In this document: in pieces, positions 1 to 869 of the stretch
How the letters are laid out: every line of letters begins with the position of its first letter
Numbering within the stretch: position 1 is the stretch's first letter
Assembly (NCBI RefSeq): GCF_003334815.1
Contig: NZ_QOWO01000115.1
Direction: 5' to 3' (one strand)
DNA length: 869 bases
Origin: Escherichia coli
Lineage (GTDB): Bacteria; Pseudomonadota; Gammaproteobacteria; Enterobacterales; Enterobacteriaceae
The notes under the pieces: model-generated
What the model saw: the letters and a program-made list of their open reading frames with translations, nothing else
What the model was told of the DNA's origin: nothing
The model's database searches: none
Translations under genes and position numbers: made by a program

Positions 1-76
1 CGCGGGGAAGTTCAGGCCGCTACGGCCTCTGCAACCGGCTTAGCGTGCTTTATTTTCCGTTTTCTGAGACGACCCC
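1..76. mobile_element. Terminal segment of a Tn3-family transposon (Tn5393-like or Tn21-like) inserted into the colicin gene; the body of the element lies beyond the left window edge
   Basis: Terminal inverted repeat at 39-76 plus 38 bp of GC-rich interior sequence at 1-38 (minus-strand read CCGGTTGCAGAGGCCGTAGCGGCCTGAACTTCCCCGCG). If the element is Tn5393-like, I recall its inverted repeats being about 81 bp, in which case all of 1-76 would be repeat; this cannot be confirmed from the window alone. Confidence 0.75.
39..76 (-). repeat. 38-bp terminal inverted repeat of a Tn3-family transposon (Tn21/Tn5393 subgroup); outer end at position 76, transposon interior towards position 1
   Basis: Reverse complement of 39-76 is GGGGTCGTCTCAGAAAACGGAAAATAAAGCACGCTAAG. 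The GGGG outer terminus, the internal ACGGAAAA motif and the inner TAAG are hallmark features of Tn3-family inverted repeats. The repeat begins exactly where the colicin-matching sequence stops, and composition shifts from AT-rich colicin sequence to GC-rich sequence at 1-38. Confidence 0.85.
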
Positions 77-869
77 TATGATGGTTTCTGTTTTAACAAA
101 AAGAGGACGCCAGTTCTCTGTCCGGACAGCCTTACCAAACTCAGTGATCCAGTCAGCAAGACTTGTAAATTTTCCTGCATATCCCAGTCCCCGACTGAAT
201 CTGTTCAGATTAGACGATATATCAGACAGCTTCACAGACTCAAGGGCTGCGGCAATCGCTGCACGATCTTTTGCATTAATTTTTTTGTTAATGTCAGCCC
301 GGTACTTTTCATACGTTTTTAATGCCTCTTCAACATTACGTATTTTCTTCCCTTTAGCCTGCCCGGCCATCTCTCTGGCTAACTGCTCAGCTTTTGCACC
401 ATATTTTTCTGAAACTGATTTCAGGAACTCTGTTGTGAAATTAATTGCGTCTTTCGTTGCCTTCAGTTCATCCTGTTTTCTTTTCTCTTCCGCTATCTTC
501 TGATTGATGCCGGAAAGCTGGTTACGGATATTCTCTTTTTCCTTCAACAGGGCATTAAGAGCGTCATTTGCATGCTTTTGCTCATTTGTTCTGGCACTGA
601 GGTTATTTCTCGCCGAATTTACCGCAGATTCAGCAGAGGTGATTTTATTTCTGGCATCAAGCAATCTTTGCCGTAACTTATCCCATTCAGCAACTTCAGC
701 ATTATAAATTTTCTTGTCACCTTCCACATCCTCTGTCACCACCGGATTCTGGTCATTCAGAATATTGCGTTTATAGTCCAGACCGGAATGGCTCAGAAGA
801 TAATTCAGGTTTGCACGGTTATCGATGACTGCGCTGGTTGTGATTTTTATCGTACCGGCAAATCTCGGA
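50..869 (-). CDS. cia: Colicin Ia-type pore-forming colicin, partial: N-terminus lies beyond the right window edge; 3' end truncated by transposon insertion at 76/77, so the last 8 codons (GVVSENGK) and the TAA stop (50-52) come from the transposon inverted repeat. Probably a non-functional (pseudogenised) colicin.
   Basis: The minus-strand frame is open from 868 to the stop at 50-52 (my translation of 743-868 gives PRFAGTIKITTSAVDINRANLNYLLSHSGLDYKRNILNDQNPV with no stop, continuing into the supplied ORF). The 'M' at 740-742 in the ORF track is a GTG valine codon. The translation (...VTEDVEGDKKIYNAEVAEWDKLRQRLLDARNKITSAESAVNSARNNLSART...KDAINFTTEFLKSVSEKYGAKAEQLAREMAGQAKGKKIRNVEEALKTYEKYRADINKK...NWRPLFVKTETII) matches my recollection of colicin Ia and differs from colicin Ib at the positions where I recall those two diverging. 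Canonical colicin Ia continues ...ETIIAGNAATALVALVFSILTG... to ...KFWGI; here the frame instead reads GVVSENGK then stops. Confidence 0.88.
   Translation of the reverse strand, partial: PRFAGTIKITTSAVIDNRANLNYLLSHSGLDYKRNILNDQNPVVTEDVEGDKKIYNAEVAEWDKLRQRLLDARNKITSAESAVNSARNNLSARTNEQKHANDALNALLKEKENIRNQLSGINQKIAEEKRKQDELKATKDAINFTTEFLKSVSEKYGAKAEQLAREMAGQAKGKKIRNVEEALKTYEKYRADINKKINAKDRAAIAAALESVKLSDISSNLNRFSRGLGYAGKFTSLADWITEFGKAVRTENWRPLFVKTETIIGVVSENGK

What the first reader, a model, noticed from the sequence alone, without database searches (positions are those of the whole stretch)
1..76. Tn3-family (Tn21/Tn5393-like) transposon end, implying nearby transposase and possibly resistance cargo
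The 38-bp inverted repeat at 39-76 is, to my recollection, identical or nearly identical to the terminal repeat of Tn5393, the strA-strB streptomycin-resistance transposon, and close to Tn21-type repeats. The element extends leftwards out of the window, so tnpA/tnpR/res and cargo genes are expected within a few kb. That would make this a colicin plasmid that has acquired a resistance transposon.
Basis: partly seen in the sequence, partly recalled or inferred. Interest (0 to 1): 0.65.

Follow-up and report, generated by a model that had tools for sequence, protein, structure and literature searches.

The report
Tn21 transposon end inside colicin gene
The first 76 bases are an exact copy of one end of Tn21, a very well known mercury and antibiotic resistance transposon, inserted into a colicin Ia toxin gene on an E. 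coli plasmid; this is ordinary and already understood.

Summary
Window 39-76 is a 38-bp Tn3-family terminal inverted repeat. The whole of 1-76 is 76/76 identical to the tnpA 3' end plus IRtnp of Tn21 in plasmid R100. The tnpA reading frame ends at TAG 41-43, inside the repeat, as in R100.

From base 77 the window is the colicin Ia gene (cia) on the minus strand, 100% identical to IncI-type plasmid copies. The junction falls exactly at the repeat tip. The insertion cuts colicin Ia after residue 575 of 626. That removes helices H8-H10, including the membrane-inserting hairpin, and adds an 8-residue tail.

The window is an entire 869-bp contig of an E. coli draft assembly (GCA_003334815.1). The transposase gene, resolvase, cargo, second repeat and target duplication therefore cannot be checked here. 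Neither this junction nor the predicted reciprocal one was found in any collection searched.

Verdict: a known element at a new but unremarkable insertion site. Low interest.

The parts
1..43 (+). 3' end of the Tn21-type transposase gene tnpA: a partial codon at base 1, then the last 13 codons (AGKFRPLRPLQPA) and the TAG stop at 41-43
   Evidence: 100% identical to R100 Tn21. The annotated tnpA CDS ends at the base equivalent to window 43. The translations agree.
39..76 (-). 38-bp terminal inverted repeat IRtnp of Tn21 (GGGGTCGTC...ACGCTAAG read inward from the tip at 76), the site the transposase binds
   Evidence: 38/38 to R100 IRtnp and to the published Tn21 repeat. It matches Tn21 IRmer at 35/38 and Tn5393a at 22-23/38.
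77..81 (.). TATGA, the 5 bp of target DNA next to the repeat tip. This is the expected copy of the 5-bp target-site duplication (inferred).
   Evidence: The uninterrupted cia sequence reads ...gcctgcTATGAtggtttc. In R100, Tn21 is flanked by the 5-bp duplication TATTA. The second copy was not observable.
77..868 (-). Colicin Ia gene (cia), codons 312-575 of 626. The gene runs off the right end of the contig.
   Evidence: 794/794 identity to cia of NZ_CP024481.1 and 13 other listed plasmids. Pfam Colicin_Ia and Colicin are on record for the product.
50..76 (-). Read-through of the truncated cia frame into the repeat: 8 foreign codons (GVVSENGK) and a TAA stop at 50-52
   Evidence: ORF list and translation. 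It replaces the last 51 residues of colicin Ia.

Best explanation
Window 1-76 is the tnpA-proximal terminus (IRtnp plus the last 13 tnpA codons) of Tn21 or a direct Tn21 derivative, in the Tn21 subgroup of the Tn3 family. It marks where that element inserted into the colicin Ia gene of an E. coli colicin plasmid.

Shown: the sequence identity, the tnpA stop inside the repeat, and a junction exactly at the repeat tip when compared with the uninterrupted target.

Inferred from established Tn3-family biology: the DDE transposase TnpA bound the two 38-bp repeats and made a cointegrate by replicative transposition. TnpR then resolved the cointegrate at res, leaving a 5-bp duplication, here TATGA.

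Consequence: colicin Ia is cut after residue 575 and loses helices H8-H10 of its pore-forming domain, so the plasmid most likely no longer makes active colicin. The convergent immunity gene would lie on the far side of the transposon.

Whether the rest of the element (tnpA, tnpR, res, class 1 integron, mer) is intact is unknown. I put it at roughly 70%, based on how often this end is accompanied by long Tn21 tnp sequence in sequenced plasmids.
For: Window 1-76 matches Tn21 in R100 at 76/76, where it is preceded by tnpR and tnpA. The 38-mer equals the published Tn21 repeat. The tnpA C-terminus and stop are identical. Related Tn21-subgroup elements share the repeat but differ in bases 1-38, at 87-91% overall, so the tnpA tail points specifically to Tn21-type tnpA. 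Window 76-869 is 100% cia, and the break against intact cia falls at the repeat tip next to an AT-rich pentamer. Tn21 in R100 shows the 5-bp duplication. At least 1,621 PLSDB plasmids carry tnpR-tnpA sequence at 99% identity or more. By comparison, 2,242 have a 99%-or-better match to some part of the 76 bases. H8 (580-594), H9 (597-612) and H10 lie beyond residue 575.
Against: Only one end is visible. There is no transposase body, res site, second repeat or duplicated pentamer, because the contig is 869 bp. Some plasmids hold the same 76 bases next to tnpA remnants truncated by IS26 or other elements, so an intact transposon is not guaranteed. The junction and the predicted reciprocal junction were not found in any other record. 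No second example therefore confirms the full structure.
Confidence: 0.9

Rival explanations
1. It is the end of Tn5393, the strA-strB streptomycin resistance transposon.
For: Both belong to the Tn3 family. Both repeats begin GGGGTCGT and end ACGCTAAG, and in both the tnpA stop lies in the repeat.
Against: The Tn5393a ends in pPSR1 match the window repeat at only 22/38 and 23/38, and the next 38 bases at 11/38. Tn21 matches 76/76.
Confidence: 0.01
2. It is only a remnant: the repeat and a stub of tnpA left after IS26-mediated or other deletion. On this reading no functional transposon or resistance cargo adjoins the colicin gene.
For: Closed plasmids exist in which the identical 76 bases have no annotated transposase beside them and IS26 or IS1006 lies within about 1 kb. 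One search lists partial tnpA matches, for example 36% coverage in H134.
Against: Most records with this end also hold long Tn21 tnp sequence at 99% identity or more: 1,621 records with long matches against at most 2,242 with the end.
Confidence: 0.2
3. The junction is an assembly artefact, a chimeric contig joining a Tn21 read to a cia read.
For: The contig is very short and is the only record of this junction.
Against: The switch from Tn21 to cia falls exactly at the terminal base of the repeat, with only a 1-base overlap ambiguity. That is what transposition predicts, and a random misjoin would rarely produce it. A contig ending 76 bases inside a repeat is the normal behaviour of a k-mer assembler at a true repeat boundary.
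Confidence: 0.02

Closest known systems
Tn21 (plasmid R100/NR1, NC_002134.1 59-19730), tnpA-proximal end IRtnp
   Same: 76/76 bases match: the 38-bp repeat, the last 13 tnpA codons and the stop codon inside the repeat.
   Different: The insertion site differs: cia with flank TATGA here, against a Tn9-related context with the duplication TATTA in R100. The rest of the element is unseen here, so Tn21 proper cannot be told apart from its many derivatives with other integron cassettes.
Other Tn21-subgroup transposons (mer transposon of pF3021-1, heavy-metal element of pVirH39, mer end of pAKD17)
   Same: The terminal repeat is the same or nearly the same: 38/38 in pF3021-1 and pAKD17. Where tnpA is present, gene order is the same: tnpR, then tnpA, then the repeat.
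   Different: The tnpA tail differs. Overall identity to window 1-76 is 90.7% (pF3021-1) and 86.8% (pVirH39). In pAKD17 the repeat sits at the merR end.
Tn5393 (Tn5393a in pPSR1, NC_005205.1)
   Same: It is a Tn3-family element. The GGGGTCGT and ACGCTAAG repeat tips are conserved, and tnpA ends in the repeat.
   Different: Only 22-23 of 38 repeat positions match. The interior is unrelated, tnpA and tnpR are divergent, and the cargo is strA-strB.
Other resistance or IS insertions in cia of IncI-type plasmids (for example ISEcp1-blaCTX-M-14-IS903B in pSZB23-1, NZ_CP107011.1)
   Same: A mobile resistance element splits cia while the adjacent colicin Ia immunity gene is kept.
   Different: The element and the position in the gene are different. 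It is not a Tn3-family insertion.

Membership tests
Tn3 family, Tn21 subgroup (Tn21 IRtnp end) | 38-bp terminal inverted repeat beginning GGGG and ending ACGCTAAG, identical to Tn21 IRtnp | tested here: met
   38/38 to R100 19693-19730 and to the repeat printed in PMC6506621.
Tn3 family, Tn21 subgroup (Tn21 IRtnp end) | tnpA reads toward the repeat and stops inside it, with Tn21-type sequence | tested here: met
   The last 13 codons and the TAG at 41-43 are identical to R100 TnpA. Relatives differ in these bases.
Tn3 family, Tn21 subgroup (Tn21 IRtnp end) | Full-length DDE transposase gene tnpA, resolvase gene tnpR and res site | not testable with these tools
   The window is the whole 869-bp contig. 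The other contigs of the assembly could not be reached.
Tn3 family, Tn21 subgroup (Tn21 IRtnp end) | Second repeat in inverted orientation at the other end | not testable with these tools
   There is none in the window. The predicted reciprocal junction is absent from PLSDB and from complete E. coli genomes.
Tn3 family, Tn21 subgroup (Tn21 IRtnp end) | 5-bp target-site duplication flanking the element | tested here: inconclusive
   The junction is exactly at the repeat tip next to the AT-rich TATGA. The second copy could not be observed. The R100 copy shows TATTA on both sides.
Tn3 family, Tn21 subgroup (Tn21 IRtnp end) | Cargo typical of Tn21: mer operon and class 1 integron | not testable with these tools
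   These are seen in the R100 reference, but nothing to the left of base 1 is available here.
Tn5393 | Terminal repeat (81 bp by my recollection of the literature) with the Tn5393 sequence | tested here: not met
   22/38 and 23/38 over the terminal 38 bp, and 11/38 over the next 38.
Colicin Ia gene (cia) | Sequence identity to annotated cia, with Colicin_Ia and pore-forming Colicin domains | tested here: met
   100% over 794 bases to cia of IncI-type plasmids. Pfam PF11504 and PF01024 are on record for the product.
Colicin Ia gene (cia) | Complete C-terminal channel domain, including the H8-H9 hydrophobic hairpin | tested here: not met
   The frame leaves cia after residue 575, and 51 residues (H8, H9, H10) are replaced by GVVSENGK. 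Helix limits are from PMC2585860.

The most novel reading that the evidence does not exclude
The 76 bases could be the end of an undescribed Tn21 derivative with unusual cargo. Alternatively, the truncated colicin Ia (residues 1-575, with translocation and receptor-binding domains intact but no pore) could be retained because it does something useful, such as occupying the Cir receptor. Nothing in the data points to either reading. They are simply not excluded, because the rest of the element and the phenotype are unseen.
Probability: 0.03. Interest if true: 0.3.

Novelty: already known. Interest (0 to 1): 0.07.

Why it matters
It matters very little beyond routine annotation. It shows that this E. 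coli isolate carries a Tn21-type element, so probably mercury resistance and a class 1 integron, on or joined to a colicin Ia plasmid. It also shows that the colicin gene was inactivated by the insertion. The practical lesson concerns interpretation. The exact 38-bp repeat is shared by several Tn21-subgroup transposons, and it is the adjacent tnpA tail that identifies the element. The family-conserved repeat tips make Tn5393 look more similar from memory than it actually is.

Tried and rejected
- **Searches for the junction elsewhere.** A whole-window megablast against PLSDB plasmids and complete E. coli genomes gave no hit spanning base 76/77. An exact 38-base junction pattern found nothing in IMG/VR, JGI metagenomes or GTDB representative genomes.
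- **Search for the reciprocal junction.** A synthetic query (cia 3' part + TATGA + Tn21 IRmer) found no spanning hit in plasmids or E. coli genomes.
- **Exact-protein look-ups.** The predicted 583-residue fusion protein and a predicted 78-residue ORF across the reciprocal junction are not on record. The 272-residue partial product is found only on this contig.
- **Members of its 90% protein cluster.** None of the 12 members whose sequences were read carries the GVVSENGK tail.
- **NCBIfam scan of the colicin fragment.** It returned only sub-threshold coiled-coil matches to SMC-like families, which is uninformative.
- **Literature.** No paper in the library describes Tn21 inserted in cia at this site.
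- **Possible identical insertion with an IS4321-split repeat.** In pN18S0133-2 the flank is different DNA, so this is not the same insertion.
- **Tn5393 hypothesis.** Rejected by direct alignment.

Full report
**What is in the sequence**

The window has two parts that meet at base 76/77. A pattern search finds the 38-mer GGGGTCGTCTCAGAAAACGGAAAATAAAGCACGCTAAG once, on the minus strand at 39-76. It has no mismatch, and nothing comparable appeared in 200 shuffles.

**Identity of bases 1-76**

Megablast of 1-76 against 72,556 plasmids gives 76/76 identity (E = 9e-32) to many records. One of these is R100 (NC_002134.1 19655-19730), the classical carrier of Tn21.

In R100 the match covers the last bases of a gene annotated 'Tn3-like element TnAs3 family transposase', preceded by a recombinase (tnpR). 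That CDS ends at the base equivalent to window 43. Translating window 2-43 gives AGKFRPLRPLQPA*, identical to the C-terminus of the R100 transposase. Bases 1-43 are therefore the 3' end of tnpA, with its TAG stop at 41-43 inside the repeat.

The full R100 copy spans 59-19730. It carries merRTPCADE, tni remnants, IS1353/IS1326-type insertion sequences, sul1, qacEdelta1, aadA1, intI1, tnpR and tnpA, and is flanked by the 5-bp duplication TATTA. A paper in the library prints exactly the window's 38-mer as the right-hand repeat of Tn21, and GGGGGCACC... as the left-hand one (PMC6506621). The window repeat matches Tn21 IRmer at 35/38.

**Tn5393 tested and rejected**

I fetched Tn5393a from pPSR1 (NC_005205.1; tnpA, tnpR, strA, strB) and read both of its ends. 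In the alignment only the family-conserved tips, CTTAGCGT and ACGACCCC, agree. Identity is 22/38 and 23/38 over the repeat, and 11/38 over the adjacent 38 bases.

The 38-bp repeat alone is not diagnostic of Tn21. A mer transposon in pF3021-1 and the mer end of pAKD17 carry the same 38 bases. Their adjacent sequence differs: 90.7% overall for pF3021-1, 86.8% for pVirH39, and unrelated merR sequence in pAKD17. The tnpA tail at 1-38 is what assigns this end to Tn21-type tnpA.

**The flank**

Bases 76-869 are 100% identical to the colicin Ia gene of 14 listed plasmids, and to the same gene in complete E. coli genomes. In NZ_CP024481.1, which is conjugative and typed IncI-gamma/K1, MOBP and MPF_I, the gene is 1,881 bp on the opposite strand. 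It is convergent with the colicin Ia immunity gene.

The intact sequence reads ...gcctgcTATGAtggtttc.... The window leaves it exactly at the repeat tip, with a one-base ambiguity (C at position 76). The adjacent pentamer TATGA (77-81) is the expected target duplication. It is AT-rich, like TATTA in R100. The second copy could not be observed.

**Effect on the colicin**

The minus-strand frame encodes colicin Ia residues 312-575. It then reads GVVSENGK and stops at 50-52. The 51 lost residues are AGNAATALVALVFSILTGSALGIIGYGLLMAVTGALIDESLVEKANKFWGI.

According to Kienker et al. 2008 (PMC2585860), H7 ends at residue 575, H8 is 580-594, H9 is 597-612 and H10 begins at 614. H8-H9 is the hydrophobic hairpin that inserts into the membrane. 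Loss of all three helices makes an active pore very unlikely. This is an inference and was not tested.

**Where the window comes from**

An exact look-up of the 272-residue partial product finds one contig, QOWO01000115.1 of GCA_003334815.1. It is 869 bp long and corresponds to the window reversed. The protein is RCR40621.1 / WP_114476226.1 of Escherichia coli.

I looked for the same insertion elsewhere:
- No record in PLSDB or in complete E. coli genomes spans base 76/77.
- The exact junction is absent from IMG/VR, JGI metagenomes and GTDB representative genomes.
- A synthetic reciprocal junction (cia 3' part, TATGA, Tn21 IRmer) has no spanning hit.
- The predicted full-length fusion protein and a predicted reciprocal-junction ORF are not on record.
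- None of the 12 cluster relatives whose sequences were read has the GVVSENGK tail.

**How likely the rest of the element is present**

By comparison, 2,242 records have a 99%-or-better match to some part of the 76 bases.

Some plasmids keep only a stub of tnpA next to IS26 or IS1006. I therefore rate a substantially intact Tn21-type element at about 70% and a remnant at about 20%. The identity of the end itself I rate at about 0.9 or higher.

An assembly misjoin is unlikely, because the switch falls exactly on the terminal base of the repeat.

**Mechanism**

The mechanism is inferred from established Tn3-family biology and is not shown here. TnpA binds the 38-bp repeats and carries out replicative transposition through a cointegrate. 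TnpR resolves the cointegrate at res, and a 5-bp duplication remains.

**Context and novelty**

Disruption of cia by mobile elements is common in closed plasmids:
- ISEcp1-blaCTX-M-14-IS903B splits it in pSZB23-1, with the immunity gene retained.
- NZ_CP066034.1 keeps only a 167-bp remnant plus the immunity gene.
- NZ_CP059919.1 has an IS1 in it.

No paper in the library describes Tn21 at this site in cia. This is only a new insertion site for one of the best-known bacterial transposons.

Verdict: already known, low interest.

Noticed in passing
window 1-869 (whole contig QOWO01000115.1): The contig stops exactly 76 bases inside Tn21. This is the overlap expected when a k-mer assembler (k about 77) breaks at a repeat. 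It suggests the Tn21 tnpA end occurs in more than one context in this genome, or that the repeat was otherwise unresolved.
   Followed up: no
window 50-868, minus strand: Colicin Ia is truncated after residue 575 of 626 and gains the tail GVVSENGK. It loses helices H8-H10, including the membrane-inserting hairpin, so the colicin is probably inactive while the immunity gene may survive beyond the transposon.
   Followed up: partly
window about 467-869: The colicin Ib gene (for example ColIb-P9, NC_002122.1) is about 98% identical to cia over the 5' 1,335 bases, which corresponds to the window right of about 467. A co-resident cib, or a second cia copy, could explain why the contig also ends inside the gene at 869.
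   Followed up: no
L014 3501-4903 (CP082700.1), equivalent to window 55/56: In many plasmids the same IRtnp match stops at window-equivalent position 55, because an IS110-family IS4321 sits inside the repeat and the outer 21 bases follow the IS. In this window the repeat is uninterrupted.
   Followed up: yes
L013 (NZ_CP107011.1), L012 (NZ_CP066034.1), H172 (NZ_CP059919.1): cia is repeatedly disrupted in closed IncI-type plasmids: by ISEcp1-blaCTX-M-14-IS903B, by a deletion that leaves a 167-bp remnant, and by IS1. In the two loci inspected (L013 and L012) the immunity gene is retained.
   Followed up: partly
window 41-43; L011 92-94; L005 about 3003-3005: At both ends of Tn21-type elements the terminal gene (tnpA at one end, merR at the other) uses the TAG within the repeat's conserved CTTAG as its stop codon.
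   Followed up: partly
window 45-503, plus strand: A 152-residue ORF is listed here, but it lies antisense to cia and starts inside the repeat. It is almost certainly not a gene.
   Followed up: no
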